Shown one piece after another: positions 11,886 to 64,000 of a stretch of DNA of 64,000 bases (the first letter of the stretch is position 1; each line of letters starts with the position of its first letter). The notes beneath the pieces were generated by a model. That model had not been told where the DNA came from, searched no databases, and saw nothing but the letters and a program-made list of their open reading frames with translations. A program made the position numbers and the translations under genes. The stretch is from an uncultured virus (IMG/VR IMGVR_UViG_3300036715_001702) (taxonomy: Duplodnaviria; Heunggongvirae; Uroviricota; Caudoviricetes), in the IMG/VR virus record IMGVR_UViG_3300036715_001702; one strand, 5' to 3'.

Positions 11886-12020
11886 AATTCAAAAATTTAA
11901 TAATGCTAGTGAATCTCTGCACTATGCTAATCTTAGCAACTAATCATGAAATAGAAACATATAATAAAAGAAAATTCTTACTAATTTCTAAACCTTACTC
12001 AGAATAAAATTTTAAACCAA

Positions 12021-12220
12021 TTGAACTTTTTTACATTTTTACATTATAAGTTAATAACGAAATGAAAAACTTAAAAAAACATATTAAATGTGAATGCACC
12101 GGTAGCGGTAGTTGCAGGAGAGGGATCCTAGCTTGGGATTTATATTTATATGTATTAAAGAAAAATTAAAATATACTAATATAGATGTCCTAGCAAAAAA
12201 GCTAGGGTATTTTTATTTTA
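12021..12220 (+). promoter_or_regulatory. Attenuator 1: promoter, leader ORF, antiterminator and terminator before the Glu/Asp/Gly/Pro tRNAs
   Basis: TTGAAC-N18-TATAAG; ATG AAA AAC at 12062; ttgggatttatatt can pair with aatatagatgtcctag; terminator gtcctagc-aaaaaa-gctagggt plus T-rich tail. Confidence 0.7.
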
Positions 12221-12242
12221 TTTGAATTTGTAAAAAATATAT

Positions 12243-12326
12243 GTTGCATTAGTCTAGCGGTCCAGGACATCAACCTTTCACGTTGATGAACGAAAGTTCT
12301 CGAGTGTTCGAATCCCTCATGCAATA
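12243..12326 (+). tRNA. tRNA-Glu(TTC) with long variable arm
   Basis: Acceptor GTTGCAT/ATGCAAT; tcaac-ctTTCac-gttga; extra gaac-gaaa-gttc arm; TTCGAAT. Confidence 0.88.
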
Positions 12327-12332
12327 CAAAAA

Positions 12333-12404
12333 GGTTTATTAGTGAAATGGTTATCATCCTACGTCGTCAACGTAGAGTTTACAGTTCAATTCTGTGATAA
12401 ACTA
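12333..12404 (+). tRNA. tRNA-Asp(GTC), atypical C33 and A73
   Basis: GGTTTAT/ATAAACT; ctacg-tcGTCaa-cgtag; TTCAATT. Confidence 0.8.
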
Positions 12405-12417
12405 CAAAAATAAAAAT

Positions 12418-12490
12418 GCGTAAATATATCAGTGGTAGATAGCTTTACTTCCAATAAAGAGGCTGGTGAGTTCGATCCTCCCTTTGCGCT
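12418..12490 (+). tRNA. tRNA-Gly(TCC)
   Basis: GCGTAAA/TTTGCGC, U73; cttta-ctTCCaa-taaag. Confidence 0.85.
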
Positions 12491-12500
12491 TTTTAAATAT

Positions 12501-12586
12501 CAGCAGGTCGCGTAGTTAGGCCTATCGCACTGGATTTGGGATCCAGTTCAGAAATGAAATCTTAGGTTTGAATCCTAATCTGCTGA
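12501..12586 (+). tRNA. tRNA-Pro(TGG) with long variable arm
   Basis: CAGCAGG/TCTGCTG; ctgga-ttTGGga-tccag; ttca-gaaa-tgaa arm. Confidence 0.88.
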
Positions 12587-12611
12587 CAATAAAATAAATA
12601 TTAAAACTGTT

Positions 12612-13430: not shown

Positions 13431-13586
13431 AAAATAATTAAGTGAAGCACTTAAAAATTTGAATGTATACAAATGTCTACTTATTTTAAATCATGGACTT
13501 TTTTCCAAATCACATGTGTTATTTTTTGTGTAGTAAAAAATAATAAAATTCATAAATTTACAATTTTGAGTAAAATTAAAATAATA

Positions 13587-13760
13587 TTGAACTTTTTAAT
13601 ATATTTGCAGTATAAATTAGTAATGAAAAACATTTTTACATATCAACAGCAATATCAACAGCAACCTAAAGTTGAATGCTATTGTATTGTGTAAAAATAA
13701 ATAAAAATATTTAAACAAAATAAAAAAGCTCAACTCAAAAAGTTGAGCTTTTTTATTTTT
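13587..13760 (+). promoter_or_regulatory. Attenuator 2 before tRNA-Tyr, tRNA-Gln and tyrS
   Basis: TTGAAC-N18-TATAAA; agttgaatgct in the leader can pair with agctcaact; terminator aaaaaagctcaact-caaaa-agttgagctttttt. Confidence 0.85.
13623..13694 (+). CDS. Tyr/Gln-rich leader peptide MKNIFTYQQQYQQQPKVECYCIV
   Basis: tat caa cag caa x2; ATG 6 nt after the -10 box. Confidence 0.85.
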   Translation: MKNIFTYQQQYQQQPKVECYCIV

Positions 13761-13764
13761 GTAT

Positions 13765-13847
13765 GGATACGTAGGTAAGTGGTTAAAACAAGAGCTCTGT
13801 AAAAGCTCCGCCTGCGGGCTTCGAAAGTTCAAATCTTTCCGTATCCT
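13765..13847 (+). tRNA. tRNA-Tyr(GTA), U73
   Basis: GGATACG/CGTATCC; gagct-ctGTAaa-agctc; long variable arm. Confidence 0.9.
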
Positions 13848-13861
13848 CAAAATATAAACTC

Positions 13862-13932
13862 TGGTAGATCGTCTAAGGGGAGGACTCAAATTTTTGACAT
13901 TTGCAATGAAGGTCCGATTCCTTCTCTACCAA
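13862..13932 (+). tRNA. tRNA-Gln(TTG)
   Basis: TGGTAGA/TCTACCA; caaat-ttTTGac-atttg. Confidence 0.88.
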
Positions 13933-13950
13933 CAATTTAAAACAAATAAC

Positions 13951-15355
13951 ATGAAAACTGAAACATTTCCACCGAATTCAATAATACCCAAAGAAAAATC
14001 AAGGGTTAAATTTGGCATAGATCCAACATCAGATAAATTACATCTAGGACATCTTGTTCCATTGAGAATGGTTAAAACACTAAAAGAGATGGGCCATACT
14101 ATCGATATAGTTCTCGGCAGTTTTACAGCGATGCTTGGTGATCCTTCTGGCAAAGACAAAATGAGACCTATGCTTTCAGATACAGAAACAAAAGCTAATG
14201 CTGAATCTATCCTGAGCCAAGTCAAGATGATACTTGGCTCAGACATATATAGTAATGTAAAATATTGAAAAATTATCCAACATTTTTTACTTATTGCTTC
14301 ATAGACACCAGTAACCTAGCATCTCCACGATCTTTTAGAACAGTCTCTTGTTCAGGTTCGGGTTTACTCATCCCTACCGAATATTTCATATTCGCACTTT
14401 TCAGTGCGAAAAATGTATTTTTATTACATTTGTTTTACGTATGAATTTGTAAATTTCATACAACCAACATGTCAATGAACATTAATCAATCAATTAATCA
14501 ATTAATAATAGAGTATATATTATACAAAAATGTTTTAGTTTAAATATTTTTATATAAATTGATATAAAATCAGTTACTTAATATTATACATTTCAATCAT
14601 ACATGGTTCGAGAAGATGTCTATTCCTCAGATGATGGACATAGTTTCTAAATTTAATGTTAATCATCTGTTGTCAAGAGATTCGTTTCAAAACAGAATCA
14701 AAAATAATAACAGTATCGGAATCCATGAACTTCTTGTTCCGATCTTACAAGGTTTGGATTCTGTAGAACTTAAATCAGACATCGAAATCGGAGGAACTGA
14801 TCAACTTTTCAATTTTATGATCAGTAGAGAGATGCAAGAAAAATATGGAATGAAACCAGAGATATGCTTGTTTGCTCCTATTATCAATGGTTTGGATGGC
14901 AGAAAGATGTCTAAATCTTTGAACAATTGTATATTCATCAATGACTCTCCAGAAGATGTTTTCGGTAAAACAATGTCCATCTCTGATGAAACAATGCATG
15001 AATGGGTAGAAGTATTTCTGAAGGATCCAAAAAATTCACATGCTTTTGAACTCAAGAAAGAGTTAGCGTTCTCTATCACAGAAGAAATATGGGGAATATA
15101 TTAGCAATCAAAGCTAAAAATCATTTCAGTTCTGTGATTTCATCTAAAAATACACCAGATGATATTCAAGAGATAGAATTCTCTGACATTATATCCATAA
15201 TTTGTTTGATCAGGAAATCATCAAAGACCGCTGCTAGAAATTTATTGATTTCTAATGCTGTTAAAGTGAATGGAAATGTTGCAACTTTGGAAACTATATT
15301 GAAATCTGGAGATGTGATCAAAGTTGGTAAACTTGATCATGTTAAAATGATATAG
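13951..15355 (+). pseudogene. tyrS: Tyrosyl-tRNA synthetase interrupted by insertion element A and a later frameshift
   Basis: GIDPTSDKLHLGH, GDPSGK, GGTDQLFN, KMSKS, C-terminal S4-like domain; insertion at 14252-14584; frame change near 15100. Confidence 0.92.
14252..14584 (-). mobile_element. 333-bp non-autonomous IS element copy A
   Basis: Near-identical reverse complement of 62533-62865; TATA on both flanks; splits tyrS. Confidence 0.92.
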
Positions 15356-28315: not shown

Positions 28316-28397
28316 ATACTATATATTAAATTAAATTGAACTTTTTATATAATTCTAAGTAATATATAGAACTAACAACAACGATCTTTGACTTATT

Positions 28398-28793
28398 GGG
28401 GGTATACGTATCGACAGCGAAACCTGGATTATTAGGTCGCATGCATAGCTAGTTGGAAGCTATTAAAAATCCTAACAAAACAATAATTGGCAATATTACC
28501 AACGAAATCGGCAGCAAGGCTGATATTCTTCATGTTCTTAAAAACAACATGTTGACTGCTAAAACTCAAGAAGCAGAACTTGAGTTAGCAGCATAGGATC
28601 TGAACAATAGTAGGATTCTCCTGTAAATAATGCAAATGTCTTATCTTTTGGTCCATCAAATGGCGAAAGGAAAATAGATGACAACTGGCTATGAAAGTTG
28701 TAGGATTTGCCAAGTTATAAAACTTGGATAAAGCATGTAAATATCAATAAAACTTTTTGTCTGAACGCGGCTTCAAGGCCGCTACCTCCACCA
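28398..28793 (+). ncRNA. ssrA: tmRNA with ~35-aa tag
   Basis: GGGGGTA/TACCTCC-A-CCA with G3.U70; TCGAC in D region; T-arm; tag ORF 28489-28596 ends ELAA*. Confidence 0.92.
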
Positions 28794-40200: not shown

Positions 40201-43077
40201 TTAAGAAGAGCAAGCAATGCATCCATCAGGGCCTGAATCTAATGAGCAAACTATACCTTCATCAATAGTTTTTTCAGCATTGGTCAAATCAACACCCAAT
40301 GCTTTGTTAGCTGATGAATCTTTCTGAGTTCTTAGATAATACATTCCAGTTTTTAAACCTTTCTCCCATGCATAGAACAAAGCAGAAGTCAATTTGGCAG
40401 CATTAACAGAAGCAAAGAATATATTCATCGATTGTGTCTGACAGACAAAAGGCCCACGATCTGCTGCTAGATCTATCAGTGCTTTCTGCTTGATCTCCCA
40501 TATAGTTTTATAAACCTCTTTTAATTCTGTTGGTATCTCTGGAACATTTTGTACAGATCCTTCTCCTAAAATTAATTTATTTTTAAGATCGTTATTCCAT
40601 AATCCAAGATCTACTAGATCATTCACTAGATGCTTGTTCACAACTGTGAATTCACCAGATAAAGTATTTCTCTTGTAGATATTAGCAGTGAATGCTTCGA
40701 AACATTCATTATTTCCTAATATTTGAGAAGTGTTATGTGTAACTAAACCGTTATGGGTTAGAAATTCATGTACTTCTTGAACTTCAATATCCCATGTTGG
40801 TTTAAGTTCAGTTGATTTTTCAATTTTTGCTATTTTCATACCGATTCCGTCAATCGTTACAATATCATCATTTTCTACTAAATCTGAAGCACAGACCCAA
40901 ATTTGGTCATTGTTTATATTAATTAGAAATTTATGATTTTCTGTACATTCAAAGATAGATCCATCTTCCATATTAATCTTAATAGTTTCTTTTAAACCAT
41001 TATAGAATATTTTATCAGATGTTTTGATACCAAATCTTGTTTGAACTTGTATAGGTTCTTTGAAAAATAACCATTGTTGATCATTAGTTTTTTCTATTTC
41101 TTGCCAATTGATATCATTTTCAGTCATAATATCTTGATAAGATTTAGCACCATTTTCAGTTAATATCAAAGTATCACTTAAAAAACAACTAGCTGTTGGC
41201 ATTAATGCAACCAGTAGCGAATTTCTAACTCCGTGTTTCTTGATATTTTTTTTCAATGTTATAAAATCCCATCTTCCAGAAAGATCTTGTTCTGTCATTC
41301 CCCACATATCGTATTGTAAAATACCTTTCGATATAGGACTTCCTTCGTATGAATTATACGGACCGTGTTTTTTAGCCAATTCGTTTGAAGCTGTCAATGC
41401 TGCAAAGTAGATAGTTTCTGAAATTTCTTTATTCAATTTCTTAGCTTCTTCTGATTCGAAAGCAATTCCCATAATTGCAAATACATCAGCTAAACCTTGA
41501 ACTCCTAAACCTACAGGACGATGGTTCTCATTAGAGAACTTAGTCTCAGGAACTGGATAGAAATTATTATCGATCACTTTGTTCAAGTTGATAGTTGCTT
41601 GATGTGCAACTTTGAATAATAGTTCGTGGTCGAATTCAGCTTTCTTTTTCTTCTTATCTTTTCCTTTAGTGATTGTTAAAAACATAGGAAGTGCTAATGA
41701 AGCCAGGTTGCAAACCGCAATCTCGTTGATATTTTTGCCAGGATGGTTTTCTTTTTGCCATTTTGTAATTCCCGTAGATTGTAATATTTCCGAGCATAAA
41801 TTACTACTTCTGATTTGGCCAATATTGGATTGATTGGATTTTATATTCGCGGCATCTTTGTAAATAATATAAGGAGTTCCTCCTTCGATTTGAGCTTCGA
41901 TTATTTTTGCCCATAAATCTCTAGCTTGAATTCTCTTACCCTTTCCTTCATTTTCATATCTGATAAAATGATCTTCAAATTCTTTTCCGTATGTTTCATT
42001 CAATTCAGGAACTTCATCTGGAGAAAATAATGTCCAGTGAGATTCTTCTTTGACACGTTGCATGAATAAATCTGGAACCATCAAAGCCAAGAATAAATCT
42101 CTAGCTCTCATTTCTTCTTTTCCTTGATTTTTTCTCAACTCTAAAAATTCGTAAATGTCTGAATGCCAAGGCTCTAACCAGGCAGAAATGCTCCCTTTTC
42201 TGCGGCCTCCACCTTGATCGATTGCTCTTGCAATCTCATTCATGATCTTTAAGAAAGGAATTAATCCATTCGAATGTCCATTTGTCCCTTTGATATATGC
42301 TCCTTTACCTCTGATATTATTCATATTGATACCGATACCACCAGCATTTTTTGAAATTTGTGCAATATCGCCAAAAGATTTAAACATTCCTTCAATTGAA
42401 TCCCCTTCATTCTGAATCAAAAAGCAAGAACTCATCTGCGGACGTTTTGTTCCTGCATTGAATAATGTGGGTGTAGCGTGAGTAAAGAATTTCTGTGACA
42501 TCAAATCGTAAGTCTTGATTGCTTCGTTAACGTCATCTTTCCAAATTCCACATGAAACACGCATCAACATCTGTTGTGGTGTTTCTGCGATCACTTTATC
42601 AATTTTTAATAAGTAAGATCTTTCTAATGTTTTGAAACCGAAATAATCGTAAGAAAAATCTCGGTCGTGTATGATGGCTTCTTCTAATTTTTTGCTGTTC
42701 TTCTTGATAAATTCGTATACATCATCAGCTATCATTCCAGCTTTTTCTCCTGTTTTAGGATTTACATAATTGTATAAATTGGTTGTAACTTCCAAGAAGC
42801 TCTTTGGTGTGTTCTTATGCAGATTTGATAATGCAATCCTAGCAGCAAGAATTGCGTAGTCTGGATGCGTTCCTGTCATCGCAGCAGCTGTTTCTGATGC
42901 TAAACTATCAAGCTCTGATGTTTTAACACCATCATATAATCCTTGAATAACTTTTGCAGCTACCGAAATAGGATCCACAAAATCTGAATTTAATCCATAA
43001 GTCTGTTTTTTGATTCTAGCTACAATCTTGTCCAATTTTACTGTCTCTTTTCGACCGTCTCTTTTTAGTACTTCCAT
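40201..43077 (-). CDS. nrdA: Class Ia ribonucleotide reductase alpha subunit with intein
   Basis: ATP cone VLKRDG, SSCF, SNLCSEI, VCNLAS, MYYLR, C-terminal CIAC. Confidence 0.97.
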   Translation of the reverse strand: MEVLKRDGRKETVKLDKIVARIKKQTYGLNSDFVDPISVAAKVIQGLYDGVKTSELDSLASETAAAMTGTHPDYAILAARIALSNLHKNTPKSFLEVTTNLYNYVNPKTGEKAGMIADDVYEFIKKNSKKLEEAIIHDRDFSYDYFGFKTLERSYLLKIDKVIAETPQQMLMRVSCGIWKDDVNEAIKTYDLMSQKFFTHATPTLFNAGTKRPQMSSCFLIQNEGDSIEGMFKSFGDIAQISKNAGGIGINMNNIRGKGAYIKGTNGHSNGLIPFLKIMNEIARAIDQGGGRRKGSISAWLEPWHSDIYEFLELRKNQGKEEMRARDLFLALMVPDLFMQRVKEESHWTLFSPDEVPELNETYGKEFEDHFIRYENEGKGKRIQARDLWAKIIEAQIEGGTPYIIYKDAANIKSNQSNIGQIRSSNLCSEILQSTGITKWQKENHPGKNINEIAVCNLASLALPMFLTITKGKDKKKKKAEFDHELLFKVAHQATINLNKVIDNNFYPVPETKFSNENHRPVGLGVQGLADVFAIMGIAFESEEAKKLNKEISETIYFAALTASNELAKKHGPYNSYEGSPISKGILQYDMWGMTEQDLSGRWDFITLKKNIKKHGVRNSLLVALMPTASCFLSDTLILTENGAKSYQDIMTENDINWQEIEKTNDQQWLFFKEPIQVQTRFGIKTSDKIFYNGLKETIKINMEDGSIFECTENHKFLININNDQIWVCASDLVENDDIVTIDGIGMKIAKIEKSTELKPTWDIEVQEVHEFLTHNGLVTHNTSQILGNNECFEAFTANIYKRNTLSGEFTVVNKHLVNDLVDLGLWNNDLKNKLILGEGSVQNVPEIPTELKEVYKTIWEIKQKALIDLAADRGPFVCQTQSMNIFFASVNAAKLTSALFYAWEKGLKTGMYYLRTQKDSSANKALGVDLTNAEKTIDEGIVCSLDSGPDGCIACSS
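40732..41187 (-). other. 152-aa mini-intein in NrdA
   Basis: MPTAS|CFLSDT...LVTHN|TSQILG; no LAGLIDADG domain. Confidence 0.92.
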
Positions 43078-48153: not shown

Positions 48154-48405
48154 TTAGTCTACCAATTTAAGATCATGTATCAGTTTTGTTTTGAACACAT
48201 CTAAAAGTTCTTCGAACTTCGTATCATCAGGATTATCGAATATCGATAATTTGATTTGATTTTTGAATTTTTCATATTCTGATGTTTCCATTTTCGATGT
48301 AACCATGATATCGTATGAAACATCCATCAGGGCTTTAAAAAGATGCATATCACTAGGTTCTAATCTGTTGTATGCAGCTATGACTATTTTCAGATTATTT
48401 GTCAT
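48154..48405 (-). CDS. Hypothetical protein
   Basis: 83 aa ORF coupled to the recombinase C-part. Confidence 0.55.
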   Translation of the reverse strand: MTNNLKIVIAAYNRLEPSDMHLFKALMDVSYDIMVTSKMETSEYEKFKNQIKLSIFDNPDDTKFEELLDVFKTKLIHDLKLVD

Positions 48406-49562
48406 TATTCGAATAATTTTTCTGCATCAACATCATCAGCATTACCATGCTCTTCAAACTCAGCAGAAATCTTGTCTAATTCTTCTTCCACTGTTTGTAA
48501 TTCGTCCATATCTCTGTATTTGAAATAATCTTCCAAGATCGGAGCCATTGCGTTCAACACTTCAGGTGTAAAAACTTCTTTTGTGTTCAATCTTGCAGTC
48601 GGAACTGATTTATCCAAATGACGAATATACCAAAAGTTTCCACCTGGATTGATAGAAGTTTTCTTGCCTATAATTTCACCTGTAGATGTATCAACATCAT
48701 CTTCGATGACAGGTTTACCTTTAGCAATTCCGATTACATCGAAGTTTTCTGGAGTACACCAGAATTCTAAACCAGAATAAGGATTTGAACCTTTGTTGAA
48801 CGAAAGTTCGAATTTGATCTTCTTAGGTTTAGCTAAACGATTCTTCTGTGTCTTTGCTGATACTATGATTCCAGATTGTCCAAGATCTTGTTCATCTTCA
48901 TTGCCATCTTTTAATTTAGCTTTGGAAAGCATTAGAATAATAGAAGCATTATAGATAGCTCCTGTATTATGTGAAACAATACCATCTTCTAAGATATAAT
49001 GAGATGCATTTTCAATACAGATATCGTGAAGCTCATATTTTCCTTCTAATTTTTTTACTGAAACAACTGTTGTATCTTTACTTATTTCTGGTTCATCAAA
49101 CATGTTTTGTTCTGTTGTCACATATTGATTATCAAATAATAATACTTTTTGACCTTCTTTCATTTTTGTTACATAAGTCCAACCAGCTTTATGATCCCAG
49201 TTTGTAGAAGTTAAAAATCTATGATCATCTGAACATTTGTAAACTGAACCATTAGCGAATGTGATTTCGTAAGCTTCTTTTTGAAAGACAACTTTTTCAG
49301 CAACTATCTCAGCACCCATCAATGTTTCTACCCAGTCTCCTTGTTTGATATCAGAGATCTGTTTATAAGATCCATCAGACATTAATACTTTGGCTTCAGC
49401 ATTTAAACATCCACCTGAAAAAATCTCTCTTGGGAACATTTCCTGTGTATTATGAGCCACCACACCATTATCTAAGATGTAATGATGTACATCTTTGACA
49501 GTGATATCATGAACTGTTTGTTTTTCACCGATTGTGACACTTTTTATTTTTAGTTGTTTCAT
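48405..49562 (-). CDS. uvsX: UvsX/RecA C-terminal part: split-intein C fragment (49449-49562), 13-aa extein, cis mini-intein (48966-49409), C-extein
   Basis: MKQLKIKS...VAHN|TQEMFPREIFSGG|CLNAEA...VSHN|TGAIYNASIILML...KNRLAKP. Confidence 0.9.
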   Translation of the reverse strand: MKQLKIKSVTIGEKQTVHDITVKDVHHYILDNGVVAHNTQEMFPREIFSGGCLNAEAKVLMSDGSYKQISDIKQGDWVETLMGAEIVAEKVVFQKEAYEITFANGSVYKCSDDHRFLTSTNWDHKAGWTYVTKMKEGQKVLLFDNQYVTTEQNMFDEPEISKDTTVVSVKKLEGKYELHDICIENASHYILEDGIVSHNTGAIYNASIILMLSKAKLKDGNEDEQDLGQSGIIVSAKTQKNRLAKPKKIKFELSFNKGSNPYSGLEFWCTPENFDVIGIAKGKPVIEDDVDTSTGEIIGKKTSINPGGNFWYIRHLDKSVPTARLNTKEVFTPEVLNAMAPILEDYFKYRDMDELQTVEEELDKISAEFEEHGNADDVDAEKLFE

Positions 49563-51070: not shown

Positions 51071-52075
51071 TTATACTAATTCTGATATTAATTCTGTAGA
51101 TAATATAATATCTCCAGATTGAAGTTCTTCAGCTTCTTTCCAACATTCGTCAGTCTCATCATTAGACCATTCTGGTTTAATTAAAAATTTATGGTTTGGA
51201 GTAACTTCAATAATCTTACCATCTTCTAGTTCTATTTTAAGAGTTGGAGCATTATCAAAAGAGTAAACTTCTTCTACCTCTTTTGGACCTTCTAAAGTTT
51301 GAACAAAATCGCCAATTTTAATGTCCTTAATCTCTTTAAGATCTCCATCTCCCATTGTAACTAATGTGTTAAATTTAGCGCAGAAGTAACTGTGATTTGA
51401 AAGCAAAAGTGGGATCGACAGTGTACCTAATTTTTGTGTAACGATACGAAAAATAGATTTTAATTGTTTAGCTCTCGTCATATCAGCTTTCTCGTTTCCA
51501 GATTCTGCATCATTGACTTCTTTATTTGATGCTAAGTTTCCTAATGAATCTAAAACTAATAAAACTTTAGGAAGTTCATAACCTTCATTCTTCATGTCTT
51601 GCATCTTCTTGATAAACTTAGCAAGGTATACTTTTAAATCTTCAACTGTGGCTATTGGATCAATACGAAATTTTGAAGTGTCAATACCAAATTTGTTACA
51701 TAAATTTAAATCTATTGCATTCTCTGAATCTAAATAAATCACATAATAGTCTTGCTTCTGGGCAGCTTTTGCAAAGTTTAAACATAAGTACGTCTTGCCT
51801 GTCCCAGATTCTCCGCCTATTCCAACAACCTTGTTATTTGGTATACCTCCACCTACTAATTTAGTAGATAATGCAGCATCCAGAACATAAATCCCAGAGG
51901 ATATAAATTCTTTAGTATTGATAAATTCATTAGTCTCTACTAAAGATCCTATAGGATTAACTTCTTTGCTAAGGAAATCATTCAATTTGCTAAATTCGAA
52001 CACCTTAGTGTTGCTTTTCTGAGCTGCCGCTTTTGCGGAACTACCAGCAGTCTTTACAGTTGCTTTTTTTGCCAT
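51071..52075 (-). CDS. uvsX: UvsX/RecA N-terminal part with split-intein N fragment (51071-51382)
   Basis: GESGTGKT, LDSENA, LDSLGNLAS, DMTRAK, SNHSYF|CAKFNT...VTPNHKFL. Confidence 0.92.
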   Translation of the reverse strand: MAKKATVKTAGSSAKAAAQKSNTKVFEFSKLNDFLSKEVNPIGSLVETNEFINTKEFISSGIYVLDAALSTKLVGGGIPNNKVVGIGGESGTGKTYLCLNFAKAAQKQDYYVIYLDSENAIDLNLCNKFGIDTSKFRIDPIATVEDLKVYLAKFIKKMQDMKNEGYELPKVLLVLDSLGNLASNKEVNDAESGNEKADMTRAKQLKSIFRIVTQKLGTLSIPLLLSNHSYFCAKFNTLVTMGDGDLKEIKDIKIGDFVQTLEGPKEVEEVYSFDNAPTLKIELEDGKIIEVTPNHKFLIKPEWSNDETDECWKEAEELQSGDIILSTELISELV

Positions 52076-59426: not shown

Positions 59427-60569
59427 ATGTATACAAAAGAAGAATTAGAGTACCTTGATTACAAGGAATCTTATTATTTGGGAAATCCAAAAATTTCAGA
59501 TCCTGAATTTGATAAATTTGAAGATCTACTAAGAAAGAAAGGATCCAGAGTTGTTGATATAGTAGGATATACGATCAAGAATAAAAAAGATGTATATGAT
59601 CATCCTTCAGATATGTTATCACTTGAAAAATTGCAAGTGAATGATGAAGAAAACATACCATTGGATGAACTTGAAAAATGGATGAACCAGATGTCAGGTA
59701 GTATCATCGAGATAAGCCCTAAATACGATGGCAATGCAATTAATTGTATTTATCAGGATGGTGTACTGATCAAAGCTTTAACAAGAGGTAGTAAAACTCA
59801 AGGGTTCGAAAGGATTAACAAATTGAAACACTTGGTTCCTAATATAATTCCATTGAAAGGAACTGTACAAATCAGAGGTGAAATAGTTATCACTGATAAA
59901 GAGTACCAAAAATACAGAGATCCTGAAAAAATATCAAATGCTCGTAATTTTGTTGCTGGAATTTTAAACAGAGATGAAGTTGATTTTGATATTATTAACG
60001 ATCTAGTATTTGTTGCATATTCATGTCTGTTGAATAATGGATACATAGATAATACTATGCAACAATTGGAAAATTTTGGTTTCAACGCTATACATAAACC
60101 TTTCCTTAGAAAATTTTCTAATATTTCAGATTTTCCAGCATTGTATAAAGAATTCAAACAATATAGAAAGAATATCAGTGAATTTCTGTTAGATGGTATA
60201 GTTCTCAAATTTCCTGAAAGTATTCGTCCTATTTTATCAGAGACTGATCATCATCCAAGGTGGGGTTTGGCAATCAAGTTTGAAACTGACATAGTAGAGA
60301 CTGAAATTTTAGATATTATCTGGAACGTTTCAACAACTGGCGAATTGTCTCCTGTTGCTATATTGAAACCTGTAGAACTTTTAGGAACCATAGTTCAGAA
60401 AGCATCTCTTTATAATTTAGGATCTATCATAACAATGAGATCTTTTCCTGGAGCTACAGTAAAGATTAGAAAATCTGGAGAAATAATACCACAAATATTA
60501 AGTGTTATAATTCCTTCACCAAATGAAGATCAATATTTAAAACAATATGAAGAAAGATGCAGAGTATAG
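59427..60569 (+). CDS. ligA: Minimal NAD-dependent DNA ligase (adenylation plus OB domains)
   Basis: ISDPEFD, MLSLEK, PKYDG, RGE, DGIVLK, AIKF, KSGEIIPQ; ends before Zn/HhH/BRCT. Confidence 0.9.
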   Translation: MYTKEELEYLDYKESYYLGNPKISDPEFDKFEDLLRKKGSRVVDIVGYTIKNKKDVYDHPSDMLSLEKLQVNDEENIPLDELEKWMNQMSGSIIEISPKYDGNAINCIYQDGVLIKALTRGSKTQGFERINKLKHLVPNIIPLKGTVQIRGEIVITDKEYQKYRDPEKISNARNFVAGILNRDEVDFDIINDLVFVAYSCLLNNGYIDNTMQQLENFGFNAIHKPFLRKFSNISDFPALYKEFKQYRKNISEFLLDGIVLKFPESIRPILSETDHHPRWGLAIKFETDIVETEILDIIWNVSTTGELSPVAILKPVELLGTIVQKASLYNLGSIITMRSFPGATVKIRKSGEIIPQILSVIIPSPNEDQYLKQYEERCRV

Positions 60570-60823
60570 AAGATATTAAAAAATCGGCATTGTTTTATTT
60601 GTTAGACTATAAAGATAAAACTTTTATAGCGATACACGAAACCAATATTGAGCAAACTCAGCAGATTGGATTTACGATAGCGTGGAATAAAAATAAAAAA
60701 GAATTTGATTATTCATATGGCCCAACATTCATGATGAATGAATATGTAGATCGTTGCATAGCGAACAAAAGATTTGATATGACAAATTCTTATGAAGAAG
60801 CATTGAAACATATCAAAAAATAA
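60557..60823 (+). CDS. Hypothetical protein
   Basis: 88 aa ORF. Confidence 0.55.
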   Translation: MQSIEDIKKSALFYLLDYKDKTFIAIHETNIEQTQQIGFTIAWNKNKKEFDYSYGPTFMMNEYVDRCIANKRFDMTNSYEEALKHIKK

Positions 60824-60907
60824 TATTTTACTCTAAAACTTTTAAAATAAATTTTCATATTACATATCTAAATATTAAATTAGCAATAAATAAAACAACA
60901 AACAAAT

Positions 60908-61132
60908 ATGGCAACTTCATCAACTAAAAAAGCAGCTCCTAAAAAAGCTGCAGCGAAAAAGACTGTCGCAGCGAAAGCTCCAGCAAAAAAAGCAACAACT
61001 AAAGCTGCACCAGCTAAAAAAGCTGCACCAGCTAAAACTACAACAGCTAAAGTTGCACCAGCAAAATCTGCTGCTAAGAAAGCTGTAGTGAAGAAATCAG
61101 CTCCTAAAAAAGAAGCTGCTCGTCCTCAGTAG
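60908..61132 (+). CDS. Histone H1-like Lys/Ala/Pro-rich protein
   Basis: AAPAKK repeats; palindromic terminator at ~61160-61190. Confidence 0.8.
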   Translation: MATSSTKKAAPKKAAAKKTVAAKAPAKKATTKAAPAKKAAPAKTTTAKVAPAKSAAKKAVVKKSAPKKEAARPQ

Positions 61133-61213
61133 TTATAATAAAAATAGTTAAAATAGATAAAAAACTCTAAACATATGTTTAGAGTTTTTTTTGATAAAAT
61201 ATTTTTTATTCAA

Positions 61214-61390
61214 TTGAACTTTTGTATATTTGTAAAGTATAATATAGTAATGAAAAACAATTCAACGATATTGACCTTATGTATGATGCTGATTCTGAAG
61301 ATTGGTACTGGGCTATATATTTGTTAAATGTTAGATAAACATATTTTAATAATAAAAGCTCAGCTCGTAAGGTTGAGTTTTTTTATTTTT
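61214..61390 (+). promoter_or_regulatory. Attenuator 3 before the Leu/Leu/Met/Ile/Cys/Thr tRNAs and leuS
   Basis: TTGAAC-N18-TATAAT; ctgggct in the leader can pair with agctcag; terminator agctcagct-cgtaa-ggttgagtt plus T run. Confidence 0.85.
61250..61327 (+). CDS. Leader peptide MKNNSTILTLCMMLILKIGTGLYIC
   Basis: 11 consecutive T/I/L/C/M codons; ATG 6 nt after the -10 box. Confidence 0.85.
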   Translation: MKNNSTILTLCMMLILKIGTGLYIC

Positions 61391-61394
61391 ATTT

Positions 61395-61468
61395 GCCTCG
61401 TTAGTAGAGTTGGTTCATACTTCAGATTTAGAATCTGAAGATCGCTGGGTCGGAACCGGCACGAGGTA
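61395..61468 (+). tRNA. tRNA-Leu(TAG), short variable loop, atypical T-loop
   Basis: GCCTCGT/ACGAGGT; tcaga-ttTAGaa-tctga; T-loop GTCGGAA. Confidence 0.82.
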
Positions 61469-61475
61469 CAAAAAT

Positions 61476-61548
61476 AGTGCATTGATGCAGTTGGTTGACA
61501 TATTGGACTTAAAATCCAAGTACATCGGATCGTTCCAGATATGCACTA
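61476..61548 (+). tRNA. tRNA-Leu(TAA), short variable loop, atypical T-loop
   Basis: AGTGCAT/ATGCACT; ttgga-ctTAAaa-tccaa; T-loop ATCGTTC. Confidence 0.78.
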
Positions 61549-61560
61549 CAAAATATAAAT

Positions 61561-61632
61561 TGCCATGTAGCTCAGTGATAGAGCAATTCCCTCATAAGGA
61601 ATAGGTCTCGAGTTTAATCCTCGACATGGCGA
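61561..61632 (+). tRNA. tRNA(CAT): elongator Met or Ile2
   Basis: TGCCATG/CATGGCG; attcc-ctCATaa-ggaat. Confidence 0.85.
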
Positions 61633-61642
61633 CAACTAATAT

Positions 61643-61715
61643 AGTCTTATATGTCAGTGGTTAGACGGTCAAACTGATACTTTGAAGGTCGTGTGTTCGA
61701 ATCACACTAAGACTA
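61643..61715 (+). tRNA. tRNA-Ile(GAT)
   Basis: AGTCTTA/TAAGACT; tcaaa-ctGATac-tttga; TTCGAAT. Confidence 0.9.
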
Positions 61716-61726
61716 CTTTTAAAAAT

Positions 61727-61798
61727 GCTCATATGGCCGAGTGACTAGGTCACGATCTGCAAAATCGTTGTACGTTGGTTTGATCCCAACTATGAGCT
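61727..61798 (+). tRNA. tRNA-Cys(GCA)
   Basis: GCTCATA/TATGAGC, U73; acgat-ctGCAaa-atcgt. Confidence 0.88.
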
Positions 61799-61810
61799 CA
61801 AAATAAAAAT

Positions 61811-61882
61811 GCCGATATAGTTCAGTGTTAGAATGTCACATTTGTAATGTGAATGTCCTGGGTTAGATTCCTAGTATCGGCT
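61811..61882 (+). tRNA. tRNA-Thr(TGT)
   Basis: GCCGATA/TATCGGC; tcaca-ttTGTaa-tgtga. Confidence 0.88.
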
Positions 61883-61938
61883 CCGAATACTGATAGTGGC
61901 TCAGATTTTTTCATACATAATAAAAATATTAATTATGT

Positions 61939-63117
61939 ATGAAAAATAAGACTCAGTTTGATTATGAAAAATTAAAAAAAATTATTAGATCAAGGATTGT
62001 CAATTGATGAAATTTCATTTGAAATGAAAACATCAATATCAAATGTAAAAAGAAAAAAAATTGAATTAAAAACTGGATTAAAATATAATCTTAGAATTGT
62101 TAAAGAAGTTGAAAAAAAATAAAATGTTTATATTGCAAAAATGATATAAAAACAACACCAAATGGACAAAGAAAATTTTGCAGTAGGGTATGCTCTATTT
62201 CATATAGAAATCAAAACAGTGATATTAAAAATAAGTGTTTCAATTGTGAAAATGAAATAGAATCTTCTGACAAAAGAAGAAAATTTTGTAATAGTTCTTA
62301 TGCATCAATTTATAATAATAAAATAAGAATTAAAAAAGAAGCTAAGCGTGCTGAAAAAAGGATATATCATAAAAGAAATAATCAAAATAAAAAAAATGTC
62401 AAAATTGTAATAGTATTGTGAAATATTCAAAAAGTGTATATTGTAGTTCTAAATGTCAAAATCAATATCAAAGGAAACTAAAATTTGAAAAGATTGAAAA
62501 TGGAGATTTAACATTATCAACAAGAGTGTATAATATTAAGTAACTGATTTTATATCAATTTATATAAAAATATTTAAACTAAACCATTTTTATATAATAT
62601 ATGCTCTATTATCAATTAATTGATTAATTGATTAATGTTCATTGACATGTTGGTTGTATGAAATTTACAAATTCATACGTAAAACAAATGTAATAAAAAT
62701 ACATTTTTCGCACTGAAAAGTGCGAATATGAAATATTCGGTAGGGATGAGTAAACCCGAACCTGAACAAGAGATTGTTCTAAAAGATCGTGGAGATGCTG
62801 GGTTACTGGTGTCTATGAAGCAATAAGTAAAAAATGTTGGATAATTTTTCAATATTTTGCATTACTATAAATTATATCTTATAGATAAATATGGAGCAAA
62901 ATGTATGATATGCGGTTGGAATGAAATCAATCCTAAAAGTGGTAAAGTTCCAATTGAATTAGAACATAGTGATGGAAATTCTGCCAATAATAATTTAAAA
63001 AATTTAAAATTATTATGTCCTAATCATCACTCATTAACTCCTACTTATAAAGGCTTAAATAAAGGTAATGGTAGAGCAAATAGAATGAAAAGATATCATG
63101 ATTGTAAATCATGGTAA
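61939..63117 (+). pseudogene. HNH endonuclease with Zn-finger repeats, broken by poly-A frameshifts and element B
   Basis: CxxC...(F/Y)CS repeats; ELEHSDGNSANNNLKNLKLLCPNHH; removing the element gives STRVY|KLYLIDKYG. Confidence 0.85.
62533..62865 (+). mobile_element. 333-bp non-autonomous IS element copy B with TnpB-tail/omegaRNA-like right end
   Basis: TATA at 62529-32 and 62866-69; gtagggatgagtaaacccgaa...gtggag...gtctatgaagca resembles TnpB 3' ends. Confidence 0.92.
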
Positions 63118-63218: not shown

Positions 63219-64000
63219 ATGGAAACAAAAAATAAAATATACGTTAACGTTGCATTTCCTTATCCTTCAGGAGCAGGATTACATGTAGGTCATAGTTACA
63301 ATTATGCTATCATTGATAGCTACTGTAGATGGTTAACATATTATCAAAACAAAGAAGTGTTTCAACCTTTTGGTTACGACGCACATGGTTTACCGACGGA
63401 ATTATATGCTGCTAAACATAATAGAGAACCAAGAGATGTAGCTTATGAAAACATTAACAAATTCAGAAATCAGATGCAAGATATGCATACTAACTATGTA
63501 GAAAAATTAATCACATCGGATACATCTTATCAAAAATGGACACAATGGCTGTTTTTAAAATTAAAGGAACATGGATTATGTTATAAGAAGAAAGCTGTAG
63601 TTTGTAGATGTCCCAGTTGCGAAACAGTAGTTTCTAATGAACAAGTAGAAAACGGGAAATGTGAAAGATGTTCCACCCCTGTAGAACAAAAAGAAATGGA
63701 TCAGTGGTATTTCAAGATCACTGATTACAGAGAAAGATTAATTAAAAATTTAGGACATTTAGATTATCCTGCAAAGACGAAAAAGATGCAGATCAATTGG
63801 TTAGAATCTATTACTGATTGGTGTGTATCAAGACAACGTAAATGGGGATGTCCTATTCCTATAGAAGGAGAGCTGGACACTATAGATACATTTGTTGATT
63901 CAAGCATATACTATATCAGATATAATGATCCTGAAAACGAAAATGAATTATGCTCGAAAGATAAATACAAACAAGTCGATTTATATGTGATAGGTTCTGA
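63219..64000 (+). CDS. leuS: Leucyl-tRNA synthetase lacking the CP1 editing domain; partial
   Basis: FPYPSGAGLHVGH, GYDAHGLP, QWYFKIT, MQINW-LESIT-DWCVSRQRKWG, DTFVDSS. Confidence 0.93.
   Translation, partial: METKNKIYVNVAFPYPSGAGLHVGHSYNYAIIDSYCRWLTYYQNKEVFQPFGYDAHGLPTELYAAKHNREPRDVAYENINKFRNQMQDMHTNYVEKLITSDTSYQKWTQWLFLKLKEHGLCYKKKAVVCRCPSCETVVSNEQVENGKCERCSTPVEQKEMDQWYFKITDYRERLIKNLGHLDYPAKTKKMQINWLESITDWCVSRQRKWGCPIPIEGELDTIDTFVDSSIYYIRYNDPENENELCSKDKYKQVDLYVIGS

What the first reader, a model, noticed from the sequence alone, without database searches (positions are those of the whole stretch)
61214..61882. Attenuator 3: one leader covering five amino acids that match six downstream tRNAs
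In MKNNSTILTLCMMLILKIGTGLYIC, 16 of the last 20 residues are T/I/L/C/M, 11 of them consecutive. The cluster is Leu(TAG), Leu(TAA), CAT, Ile(GAT), Cys(GCA), Thr(TGT). All five Leu codons (TTG, TTA, CTG, CTG, CTA) are ones these two Leu tRNAs read; there is no CTT/CTC. ctgggct (61308-14) can sequester the terminator arm agctcag, extended by ttgttaa/ttaataa and atgtt/aacat.
Basis: partly seen in the sequence, partly recalled or inferred. Interest (0 to 1): 0.92.

Follow-up and report, generated by a model that had tools for sequence, protein, structure and literature searches.

The report
Leader-peptide switch before phage tRNA genes
A tiny gene made mostly of the very amino acids that the six tRNA genes behind it serve, followed by a transcription stop signal, looks like a sensor that lets a giant bacterial virus make those tRNAs only when they run short.

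Summary
At 61213-61390 a promoter-like site, a 25-codon ORF (61250-61327) and an intrinsic terminator ending 4 nt before tRNA-Leu precede six tRNA genes. After the start codon, 16 of 24 residues are Leu/Ile/Thr/Met/Cys (6.3 expected), 11 of them consecutive.

It is one of three such modules in the window, all behind one shared promoter word. The Tyr/Gln module matches strikingly. The Glu/Asp/Gly/Pro module does not.

The same design recurs in relatives: eight units in the 635-kb phage LR745206.1, seven in metagenome contigs and two in the 735-kb LR756501.1. Leader content tracks array content. In 11 units 109 of 276 residues are cognate, against 46 expected, and 0 of 200,000 permutations reach that. 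The match holds only in the ATG frame (0.40 against 0.17 and 0.14).

Each ORF carries a complement to its own terminator's 5' arm just 3' of the cognate run. A ribosome stalled in the run spares this antiterminator; one that passes melts it.

Best reading: classical ribosome-mediated attenuation applied to tRNA genes, giving demand-driven tRNA supply. No expression data exist. Nine literature searches found no prior report. This is a new variant of a known kind, of high interest.

The parts
61213..61243 (+). Promoter-like site. An 11-base word at 61213-61223 is shared with the other two tRNA clusters and the tmRNA gene. The -35-like hexamer is at 61214-61219 and the -10-like hexamer at 61238-61243, 6 nt before the ATG.
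   Evidence: 10 of 12 consensus positions, spacer 18; exact copies of the 11-mer at 12020, 13586, 28335 and 61213; the word plus a -10-like pentamer gives 3 matches against 0.04 expected; alignment.
61250..61327 (+). Leader ORF of 25 codons plus stop, with no Shine-Dalgarno-like sequence and at most a very short 5' UTR.
   Evidence: 16 of 24 residues are cognate to the downstream tRNAs against 6.3 expected. Frames +1 and +2 give 6 of 24 each.
61265..61297 (+). Regulatory run: codons 6-16, 11 consecutive Thr/Ile/Leu/Cys/Met codons. This is the proposed stalling zone.
   Evidence: One search gives the residue list. With the A site on any of these codons, the terminator's 5' arm stays sequestered (0.73-0.77).
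61308..61314 (+). 5' strand of the antiterminator, inside codons 20-22. It pairs with 61357-61363; the whole antiterminator helix spans 61308-61363.
   Evidence: MFE folds. Duplex of the ORF with its own 5' arm is -12.0 kcal/mol, against a mean of -6.7 for the 15 other leaders.
61271..61281 (+). Second pairing segment, in codons 8-11. In the untranslated RNA it pairs with the terminator loop and 3' arm (61366-61376).
   Evidence: MFE fold.
61354..61390 (+). Intrinsic terminator: hairpin at 61354-61382 (12 pairs, 3 of them G-C, loop of 5), then a T-rich tail ending 4 nt before the first tRNA.
   Evidence: The hairpin alone folds at -11.6 kcal/mol.
61395..61884 (+). Array of six tRNA genes: Leu(tag), Leu(taa), CAT (Met or Ile2), Ile(gat), Cys(gca), Thr(tgt).
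   Evidence: ARAGORN. (Rfam RF00005, 43.6-65.8 bits).
13586..13933 (+). Sister module 2. It has the same promoter word and a 23-codon ORF at 13623-13694, in which codons 7-14 are twice one Tyr followed by three Gln. A terminator at 13719-13757 is followed by tRNA-Tyr and tRNA-Gln. A split class I Trp/Tyr-type aaRS gene starts 18 nt further on.
   Evidence: 9 of 22 cognate against 1.7 expected. Textbook three-state fold behaviour. Fold z-score -7.65.
12020..12587 (+). Sister module 1. It has the same promoter word, a 35-codon ORF at 12062-12169 and a terminator at 12178-12217, followed by tRNA-Glu, Asp, Gly and Pro. The architecture is kept but the leader is not enriched in cognate residues.
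   Evidence: 5 of 34 against 7.4 expected. Own-arm duplex -10.2 kcal/mol, rank 1 of 16.
28335..28793 (+). The same promoter word in front of the tmRNA gene (28398-28793), with no ORF and no terminator between. This is an internal control: the leader and terminator are an add-on specific to the tRNA arrays.

Best explanation
The element is a ribosome-mediated (leader-peptide) transcription attenuator that gates a six-gene tRNA array of a huge phage.

Proposed sequence of events:
1. Transcription starts at the promoter shared by all stable-RNA loci of the window.
2. A ribosome loads on the ATG at 61250, which has no Shine-Dalgarno sequence and sits at or near the 5' end.
3. If Leu-, Ile-, Thr-, Met- and Cys-tRNAs are plentiful, the ribosome runs through codons 6-16.
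4. From codon 17 on, its leading edge enters 61308-61314 and melts the antiterminator (61308-61314 paired with 61357-61363).
5. The terminator hairpin (61354-61382) then forms, and RNA polymerase stops in the T tract 4 nt before tRNA-Leu.
6. If any of these aminoacyl-tRNAs is short, the ribosome stalls inside the run. The antiterminator persists, and polymerase reads on into the six tRNA genes that relieve the shortage.

The result is a negative-feedback, supply-on-demand control of phage tRNA genes.

Shown in silico: all sequence parts, their arrangement, the composition match, its frame specificity, the antiterminator complementarity, and the recurrence of the design in relatives.

Inferred: translation of the ORF, coupling of ribosome and polymerase, stalling, and the direction of the response.
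For: (1) All parts are present and contiguous. There is no room for another promoter between the terminator and tRNA-Leu.

(2) Composition: 16 of 24 residues are cognate against 6.3 expected, P = 3.8e-5, including a run of 11.

(3) The module is repeated behind the same promoter word before all 12 tRNA genes of the window, but not before the tmRNA gene. The Tyr/Gln module has 9 of 22 cognate against 1.7 expected.

(4) Relatives. LR745206.1 has a LeuRS-like protein 68% identical and 61 tRNA matches. It holds eight units whose leaders follow the arrays. Examples are 7 Gln of 15 before three tRNA-Gln, 4 Lys of 8 before four tRNA-Lys, 11 Ser/Arg of 23 before tRNA-Arg and tRNA-Ser, and 29 of 37 before a large Asn/Arg/Leu/Val/Ile/Thr/Met array.

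(5) Eleven units together: 109 of 276 cognate against 46.4 expected. Permuting tRNA sets among leaders reaches this in 0 of 200,000 trials.

(6) Replication with a fixed automatic rule on 52 metagenome loci (21 of them with tRNAs) and on LR756501.1. Ten units give 101 of 280 against 44.4 expected; 10 of 200,000 permutations reach this.

(7) Frame control on 20 units: 185 of 463 (0.40) in the ATG frame, against 81 of 463 and 66 of 463 in the other two frames.

(8) Antiterminator. The summed duplex energy of each ORF with its own terminator 5' arm is -158.4 kcal/mol. Permuted pairings give -102.3 (sd 9.3), and 0 of 100,000 reach the observed sum. The orthologous leaders in L040 and L054 have different terminator stems, and their in-ORF partner differs accordingly.

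(9) Geometry. In 16 units, sequestration of the 5' arm stays on a plateau while the A site is in the cognate run and falls 0-2 codons after it. Cognate codons are 149 of 323 before the switch against 20 of 101 after it (Fisher P = 1.5e-6). Here the plateau is 0.73-0.77 through codon 16, 0.55 at codon 17 and 0.30 at codon 24.

(10) Negative control. The same rule applied to tRNA regions of two unrelated phages gives 2 ORF-plus-terminator hits in 21 gaps, with 1 of 40 and 1 of 12 cognate.
Against: - There are no expression data, so translation, stalling and read-through are all inferred.
- One of the three window modules (12062-12169) has the architecture but no cognate enrichment (5 of 34 against 7.4 expected).
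- For this element the computed contrast is modest: 0.73-0.77 falling to 0.30-0.55. The whole-leader fold is only marginally better than shuffles (z = -1.92; 7 of 200 shuffles fold as well).
- Without a ribosome the antiterminator is the default state (arm paired 0.86). Untranslated transcripts would therefore read through, unlike the trp attenuator.
- Five cognate codons (18, 20, 22, 24, 25) lie after the switch, where a stall should not help read-through.
- A full-length equilibrium scan with ribosome footprints gave no clean pattern.
- Codon-level matching to the anticodons is not above chance: 93 of 109 against 88.2 expected.
- An ORF starting right after the leader's stop (61328-61438) would carry ribosomes through the terminator if it were used.
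- The units in LR745206.1 were picked by eye from ORF lists. Automatic detection missed or mismatched some gaps: 2 of 9 terminator-bearing gaps and 1 of 4 have no ORF, and one ORF scores 3 of 43.
- Many units in relatives are orthologues of one another and so are not independent.
Confidence: 0.75

Rival explanations
1. Same attenuator hardware, but the quantity sensed is amino-acid supply (charging) rather than tRNA abundance. This would resemble the bacterial biosynthetic and pheST leaders, with the tRNA genes riding along with phage aminoacyl-tRNA synthetase genes.
For: A stalled ribosome reads aminoacyl-tRNA and cannot tell low tRNA from low charging. The Tyr/Gln array is followed after 18 nt by a class I Trp/Tyr-type synthetase gene. 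The Gln unit of LR745206.1 is followed by a gene that looks like a Gln/Glu-type synthetase by eye. A further leader-plus-terminator in LR745206.1 stands directly before a class II Asp/Lys/Asn-type synthetase gene with no tRNA between.
Against: For the element in question, the genes directly gated are six tRNA genes. The LeuRS-like gene lies 1.3 kb further on, behind other ORFs. Making more tRNA does not help amino-acid starvation, whereas it does relieve tRNA shortage.
Confidence: 0.15
2. The ORF is a general sensor of translation capacity, of the kind found in antibiotic- or stress-sensing leader ORFs. On this reading the amino-acid content has no specific meaning.
For: Without a ribosome the antiterminator forms by default, so any failure to translate would switch the array on. 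The Glu/Asp/Gly/Pro module keeps the architecture without cognate enrichment.
Against: Leader content follows array content across units: 0 of 200,000 permutations and 10 of 200,000. The cognate codons sit just before the switch point.
Confidence: 0.08
3. The ORF encodes a small hydrophobic membrane peptide, for example a type I toxin-like product, with its own terminator. The tRNAs would then be made by leakage or from another start.
For: The peptide is strongly hydrophobic and 25 residues long.
Against: The sister leaders behind the same promoter, and their counterparts in relatives, are Gln-, Ser-, Lys- or His/Phe-rich rather than hydrophobic. The terminator ends 4 nt before the first tRNA, leaving no room for a promoter. 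Composition tracks the tRNA sets.
Confidence: 0.03
4. The leader RNA binds tRNAs directly by codon-anticodon pairing, in the manner of a T-box, without translation.
For: Cognate triplets are present in the RNA, and a terminator/antiterminator pair exists.
Against: The match exists only in the frame set by the ATG: 0.40 against 0.17 and 0.14. No T-box or other riboswitch model matches, either at gathering score or among the 13 sub-threshold matches.
Confidence: 0.02
5. Chance: an AT-rich spacer happens to hold an open frame rich in Leu/Ile/Thr.
For: AT-rich DNA favours Ile/Leu codons, and the fold z-score is only -1.92.
Against: P = 3.8e-5 for the composition. The other frames give 6 of 24. The module recurs in the window and in relatives.
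Confidence: 0.02

Closest known systems
Multivalent leader-peptide attenuators of bacterial amino-acid operons (ilvGMEDA: Ile/Leu/Val; thr: Thr/Ile; also trp, his, leu, pheA). Recalled from textbook knowledge, not from a call.
   Same: A short ORF with a run of regulatory codons, an intrinsic terminator, and an antiterminator whose 5' strand a ribosome reaches only after the run. Several amino acids are sensed by one leader.
   Different: The regulated genes are tRNA genes, not biosynthetic enzymes. Five amino acids are sensed at once. There is no anti-antiterminator in this element, although the Tyr/Gln sister has one. The ORF lacks a Shine-Dalgarno sequence and starts at or near the 5' end. 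The element is carried by a phage. No Rfam leader family reaches its gathering score.
pheST attenuator of E. coli (Phe-rich leader before phenylalanyl-tRNA synthetase). Recalled, not from a call.
   Same: Leader-peptide attenuation applied to a component of the translation apparatus that handles the same amino acid. The nearest parallels here are the Tyr/Gln module with its synthetase gene and the leader before a class II synthetase gene in LR745206.1.
   Different: pheST controls a protein gene. Here the direct products are the tRNAs themselves, so the regulated product is the very molecule whose shortage stalls the ribosome.
T-box riboswitches (recalled)
   Same: A terminator/antiterminator decision upstream of translation-apparatus genes, keyed to a specific tRNA.
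   Different: A T-box binds uncharged tRNA directly and needs no translation. Here the signal is frame-specific, an ORF is present, and no T-box model matches.
tRNA arrays of huge phages, Mahaphage clade (Al-Shayeb et al. 2020, PMC7162821; passages seen)
   Same: The arrays, synthetase genes and tmRNA seen here are the kind of translation-gene repertoire that paper reports. LR745206.1 and LR756501.1 have the sizes the paper gives for its largest genomes, which it predicts to infect Bacteroidetes.
   Different: The main text of that paper has no occurrence of words starting 'attenuat', 'leader' or 'terminator'. Its supplements were not read.

Membership tests
Ribosome-mediated (leader-peptide) transcription attenuator | A short translatable ORF between promoter and terminator | tested here: met
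   25 codons at 61250-61327, between the promoter-like site at 61214-61243 and the terminator at 61354-61390.
Ribosome-mediated (leader-peptide) transcription attenuator | Clustered regulatory codons for the amino acid(s) tied to the regulated genes | tested here: met
   16 of 24 cognate against 6.3 expected, with a run of 11. Frame-specific.
Ribosome-mediated (leader-peptide) transcription attenuator | An intrinsic terminator directly upstream of the regulated genes | tested here: met
   Hairpin at 61354-61382 plus a T tract ending 4 nt before tRNA-Leu.
Ribosome-mediated (leader-peptide) transcription attenuator | An antiterminator that shares a strand with the terminator and is disrupted only by a ribosome that has passed the regulatory codons | tested here: met
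   61308-61314 pairs with 61357-61363 in the MFE folds. Arm sequestration is 0.73-0.77 up to codon 16, then 0.55 falling to 0.30. Own-arm complementarity is specific across units. All of this is in silico only.
Ribosome-mediated (leader-peptide) transcription attenuator | An anti-antiterminator (1:2 hairpin) that enforces termination when the leader is not translated | tested here: not met
   Without a ribosome, the 5' arm is sequestered in this element (0.86). The Tyr/Gln sister module does have this feature (0.05 without a ribosome).
Ribosome-mediated (leader-peptide) transcription attenuator | The regulated genes encode amino-acid biosynthesis enzymes or an aminoacyl-tRNA synthetase (all described cases that I recall) | tested here: not met
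   The gated genes are six tRNA genes. This is the respect in which the element departs from the known kind.
Ribosome-mediated (leader-peptide) transcription attenuator | Read-through rises when the cognate aminoacyl-tRNA is limiting | not testable with these tools
   No RNA data: no RNA holder is listed among the 17 runs.
Curated Rfam leader families (Thr_leader, Phe_leader, Leu_leader, His_leader, Trp_leader) | Covariance-model score at or above the family's gathering score | tested here: not met
   No leader family is found at gathering score in the window. On 61180-61400 the best is Phe_leader at 17.6 bits against a threshold of 55, covering only the terminator. On the Tyr/Gln leader, Thr_leader scores 29.2 bits against 55.
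T-box riboswitch | A match to the T-box model (specifier loop and conserved T-box sequence), with action independent of translation | tested here: not met
   No T-box match. The cognate signal is confined to the ATG frame.
Type I toxin-like small hydrophobic peptide gene | A conserved hydrophobic peptide family with an antisense RNA partner | not tested
   Only the hydrophobicity was seen. The sister leaders are not hydrophobic.

The most novel reading that the evidence does not exclude
Huge phages of this clade run an autonomous tRNA homeostat, amino acid by amino acid. Each tRNA sub-array, and some synthetase genes, carry a 'barcode' leader peptide whose codon content is rewritten as the array gains or loses tRNAs. 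The phage would thus measure, on the host's own ribosomes, which decoding capacities are failing and transcribe exactly those tRNAs. The failure could come from host tRNA-cleaving defences, from phage-induced decay of host tRNA, or from mismatched codon usage. The default-on state without translation would make the system fail-safe when translation collapses.
Probability: 0.35. Interest if true: 0.95.

Novelty: new variant of a known kind. Interest (0 to 1): 0.87.

Why it matters
Leader-peptide attenuation is a textbook mechanism. As far as I recall, and as far as nine full-text searches show, it has been described only for protein-coding operons, never for tRNA genes.

Here the regulated product is the very molecule whose shortage stalls the sensor, which is the shortest possible feedback loop for translation capacity. 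That would explain how phages with 60 or more tRNA genes avoid making them blindly.

The design also gives a sequence-level read-out of which tRNAs a phage treats as one supply unit. It offers a natural set of compact sensors, specific for up to seven or eight amino acids, for synthetic biology.

Finally, it makes an open question directly testable: why phages carry tRNAs at all. The candidates are codon-usage compensation and replacement of host tRNAs that are degraded or cleaved by defence systems. The leaders say what is being measured.

Tried and rejected
- A scan of viral contigs with the promoter-plus-ATG pattern gave 16 loci. None holds a tRNA, so they are chance matches.
- Searches of viral contigs with the ligase and with a 515-aa neighbour found no relative.
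- blastn of 60500-63000 against phage records hit only single tRNA genes.
- Sequencing runs: no RNA holder is listed among the 17 runs.
- Laying contigs of four DNA runs on 61150-61950 gave no variation in the leader. Three runs are identical where they cover it, and the fourth does not cover it. This allows no micro-evolutionary test.
- A full-length equilibrium fold with a ribosome footprint at each codon gave no interpretable pattern for this element, and a terminator always formed for the Tyr/Gln one. I replaced it with folds of the transcript truncated before the 3' arm and of the RNA 3' of the ribosome only.
- The codon-level anticodon match is not above chance.
- The identity of the CAT tRNA (Met or lysidine-Ile) could not be settled. 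Nor could the question whether the leaderless lone CAT tRNAs of relatives are initiators.
- For the Glu/Asp/Gly/Pro module I considered an alternative TTG-started frame (12112-12225). It has Glu, Asp, Pro and Gly within its first nine codons, just before the antiterminator partner. It has no ATG and runs through the terminator, so I left it as unexplained.
- Coordinate or parameter slips.
Full report
**Context.** The window is AT-rich (26-34% G+C in 4-kb steps) and looks like part of a huge phage.
- It encodes ribonucleotide reductase with an intein, thymidylate synthase, DnaB- and RecA-like proteins with inteins, DnaJ and an NAD-dependent ligase.
- It also holds the start of a class I Ile/Leu/Met/Val-type synthetase, a tmRNA and 12 tRNA genes in three clusters.
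- The synthetase fragment is 68% identical to a translated stretch of the 634,780-bp uncultured phage LR745206.1, and other phage hits are annotated as leucine-tRNA ligase.
- The paper that reported such genomes says those above 634 kb are predicted to infect Bacteroidetes and form the Mahaphage clade (PMC7162821, passages seen).
- Placing the window in that clade is my inference.

**Observation.**
- The ATG at 61250 opens a 25-codon frame that stops at 61325-61327.
- After the start codon, 16 of 24 residues are Leu, Ile, Thr, Met or Cys. Codons 6-16 are 11 such residues in a row.
- Window ORF composition gives these amino acids a frequency of 0.262, so the count has P = 3.8e-5 and the run about 6e-6.
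- The other two frames of the same bases give 6 of 24 each.
- The six tRNAs are as stated.
- A terminator-like hairpin at 61354-61382 with a T tract ends 4 nt before tRNA-Leu. A promoter-like site lies at 61214-61243.
- The proposed pairing of 61308-61314 with 61357-61363, with both inner helices, is the minimum-free-energy structure.
- The one point without weight is the Leu-codon detail. All five are readable, but the chance of that is 0.35. Over 11 units, strict-wobble decodability is 93 of 109 against 88.2 expected.

**A repeated module.**
- An 11-base word at 61213 recurs exactly at 12020, 13586 and 28335. With a -10-like pentamer it gives 3 matches against 0.04 expected.
- Three copies stand before the three tRNA clusters. 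Each is followed by an ORF with the same first three codons, then a terminator that abuts the first tRNA.
- The fourth copy stands before the tmRNA gene, with no ORF and no terminator. The promoter therefore serves stable RNAs in general, and the leader and terminator are an add-on for tRNA arrays.
- In the Tyr/Gln module (ORF 13623-13694), codons 7-14 are twice one Tyr followed by three Gln: 9 of 22 cognate against 1.7 expected.
- In the Glu/Asp/Gly/Pro module (ORF 12062-12169), only 5 of 34 are cognate against 7.4 expected. That module does not fit by composition.

**Relatives.** LR745206.1 has 61 tRNA matches, mostly in five arrays.
- I listed all 27 gaps of 60 nt or more before ARAGORN-called tRNAs in six array regions.
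- By reading the ORF lists I picked eight gaps that hold a short ATG ORF followed by a hairpin directly before the next tRNA. Seven of the hairpins have a T tract.
- Cognate counts are as follows:

| Downstream tRNAs | Cognate residues |
|---|---|
| His/Phe/Trp | 6 of 30 |
| four tRNA-Lys | 4 of 8 |
| Arg/Ser | 11 of 23 |
| Glu/Tyr | 7 of 27 |
| Ile/Gly/Met | 9 of 26 |
| Asn/Arg/Leu/Val/Ile/Thr/Met | 29 of 37 |
| Pro/Asp | 6 of 30 |
| three tRNA-Gln | 7 of 15 |

- By my count from the coordinates, about 51-53 of the 61 tRNA matches lie behind such a unit.
- Most other gaps hold, by eye, tRNA-like sequences that ARAGORN did not call. After the Ser/Arg unit, two of these have Ser-type anticodon loops that would read the AGT and TCT codons of that leader (read by eye).
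- A ninth leader-plus-terminator stands before a class II Asp/Lys/Asn-type synthetase gene.

**Statistics and replication.**
- Over the 11 units (three from the window, eight from LR745206.1), 109 of 276 residues are cognate against 46.4 expected. Permuting the tRNA sets among the leaders gave a mean of 41.9 and a maximum of 97, with 0 of 200,000 reaching 109.
- Because I had picked those eight units by eye, I wrote a fixed rule. It takes the last hairpin-plus-T-run within 120 nt before a tRNA, and the longest ATG ORF of at least 7 codons ending within -65 to +9 of the 5' arm.
- I applied the rule to 52 metagenome loci that encode relatives of the synthetase at 57-71% identity. Of these, 21 hold tRNAs.
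- It found 9 terminator-bearing gaps, 7 of them with an ORF.
- In six regions of the 735-kb phage LR756501.1, whose synthetase is only 31% identical, it found 4 such gaps, 3 with an ORF.
- The 10 units give 101 of 280 cognate against 44.4 expected; 10 of 200,000 permutations reach this. One unit is a clear miss (3 of 43) and one is short and weak (4 of 10).
- Several units are orthologues of those in LR745206.1, so the units are not independent events.
- The same rule recovers 3 of 3 gaps in the window.
- In tRNA regions of two unrelated phages it finds 2 ORF-plus-terminator hits in 21 gaps, with 1 of 40 and 1 of 12 cognate.
- Over 20 units the cognate share is 185 of 463 in the ATG frame, against 81 and 66 of 463 in the other frames. 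The signal is therefore read by translation, not by bare RNA.

**RNA switch.** A full-length equilibrium scan was uninformative, as it would be for the trp leader, where the terminator is also the more stable helix (recalled).
- I therefore asked whether the terminator's 5' arm is already sequestered before its 3' arm exists. I used a ribosome footprint of A-15 to A+12. I then allowed only RNA 3' of the ribosome to fold.
- In 16 units the arm stays sequestered while the A site is in the cognate run and is released 0-2 codons after the last codon of the run. Cognate codons are 149 of 323 before the switch and 20 of 101 after it (P = 1.5e-6).
- Here the value is 0.73-0.77 through codon 16, 0.55 at codon 17 and 0.30 at codons 24-25.
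- The Tyr/Gln module behaves as in the textbook: 0.05 without a ribosome, about 0.85 with the A site on codons 6-12, and 0.05-0.19 afterwards. Its fold z-score is -7.65.
- Each ORF is specifically complementary to its own terminator arm. The sum is -158.4 kcal/mol against -102.3 (sd 9.3) for permuted pairs, with 0 of 100,000 permutations as low.
- This element scores -12.0 against a mean of -6.7 for the other leaders.
- The three Gln units fail this test because their partner lies past the stop codon.
- The orthologous large-array leaders of L040 and L054 have different terminator stems and correspondingly different partners inside the ORF.

**Mechanism.** The best reading is ribosome-mediated attenuation.
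- A ribosome that runs through codons 6-16 melts the antiterminator, and polymerase stops before tRNA-Leu.
- A ribosome starved of any of the five aminoacyl-tRNAs stalls in the run and leaves the antiterminator intact, so the six tRNA genes are transcribed.
- The parts, the geometry and the comparative pattern are shown. Translation, coupling, stalling and polarity are inferred.
- The -10-like hexamer ends 6 nt before the ATG, and no Shine-Dalgarno-like sequence is present. The mRNA is therefore leaderless or nearly so. That fits a Bacteroidetes host, whose mRNAs largely lack such sequences (recalled).

**What does not fit.**
- The Glu/Asp/Gly/Pro module has no cognate enrichment.
- This element has no anti-antiterminator.
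- Its computed contrast is modest and its fold z-score is only -1.92.
- Five cognate codons lie after the switch.
- An ORF starts right after the leader's stop and runs through the terminator (61328-61438).
- The Lys units of relatives have a hairpin without a T tract that abuts the stop codon. They may work differently.

**Comparison with known systems and novelty.**
- The element works like the multivalent leader-peptide attenuators of amino-acid operons and like the pheST leader (recalled).
- It differs in its target (tRNA genes), in the number of amino acids sensed, in its default-on state and in its carrier.
- No curated Rfam leader or T-box family matches.
- Nine full-text searches found no report of leader-peptide attenuation of tRNA genes. 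I saw search listings only, plus passages of PMC3082878 (irrelevant) and of PMC7162821 (no mention in the main text; supplements not read).
- Subscription journals are outside that library, so prior description cannot be excluded.
- I rate it a new variant of a known kind.

Noticed in passing
window 12062-12225: The leader of the Glu/Asp/Gly/Pro cluster keeps the promoter, ORF, antiterminator and terminator but is not enriched in cognate residues (5 of 34). An overlapping TTG-started frame (12112-12225) has Glu, Asp, Pro and Gly within its first nine codons, right before the antiterminator partner. Unexplained.
   Followed up: partly
window 13951-15104 and 62639-63117: The class I Trp/Tyr-type synthetase gene after tRNA-Gln is split (13951-14268 and 14616-15104) by an insert of about 350 nt. 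A stretch of about 190 nt of that insert recurs, inverted and nearly identical, at 62665-62852. There it lies next to an 86-aa ORF (62857-63117) that looks like an HNH endonuclease by eye but has no Pfam hit. Probably a mobile intron or homing element.
   Followed up: no
window 28335-28793: The tmRNA gene (Rfam 53 bits, not called by ARAGORN) sits behind the same promoter word as the tRNA clusters. By eye its tag reading frame ends in the usual Leu-Ala-Ala.
   Followed up: partly
window 61395-61549 and 12243-12587: The tRNA sizes are unusual. Both Leu tRNAs are short (74-75 nt, with no long variable arm), while the Glu and Pro tRNAs are long (85 and 87 nt, with an extra arm). The phage's own LeuRS-like gene at 63219 may be needed to charge the short Leu tRNAs.
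   Followed up: no
window 61328-61438: A 36-codon ORF starts at the ATG directly after the leader's stop codon and runs through the terminator into tRNA-Leu. If used by re-initiating ribosomes it would counteract termination. The sister modules have no counterpart.
   Followed up: no
L029 1921-1950; L048 11766-11801; L096 12011-12049: The Lys units of relatives are very short ORFs of 8-11 codons after the start, each with 4 Lys. The stop codon abuts or nearly abuts a strong hairpin that lacks a T tract. The LR745206.1 copy (L029) has a Shine-Dalgarno-like sequence by eye. They probably represent a different switch type.
   Followed up: partly
L043 about 1610-1760, then 1764-2942: In LR745206.1 a 16-codon leader with three Asn and two Arg codons, plus a terminator, stands directly before a class II Asp/Lys/Asn-type synthetase gene. 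The same device also gates a synthetase gene with no tRNA between.
   Followed up: partly
L056 654 and L057 654; L038 1915-1988: ARAGORN calls a tRNA with anticodon CTA (labelled Pyl, i.e. an amber-reading tRNA) in two metagenome relatives. It also calls a tRNA with a four-base anticodon in LR745206.1. These may be suppressor or frameshift tRNAs.
   Followed up: no
window 40201-43077, 48405-49562, 51071-52075: Intein or Hint domains occur in the ribonucleotide reductase large subunit and in two neighbouring ORFs, one of them RecA-like.
   Followed up: no
L029, L031, L038, L040 upstream of leaders: The leaders of LR745206.1 are preceded by a recurring motif pair. By eye it resembles the Bacteroidetes -33/-7 promoter type, followed by a second A/T-rich box just before the ATG. 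A similar -7-like word also lies inside the window's promoter spacers at 61225-61232 and 13600-13607.
   Followed up: no
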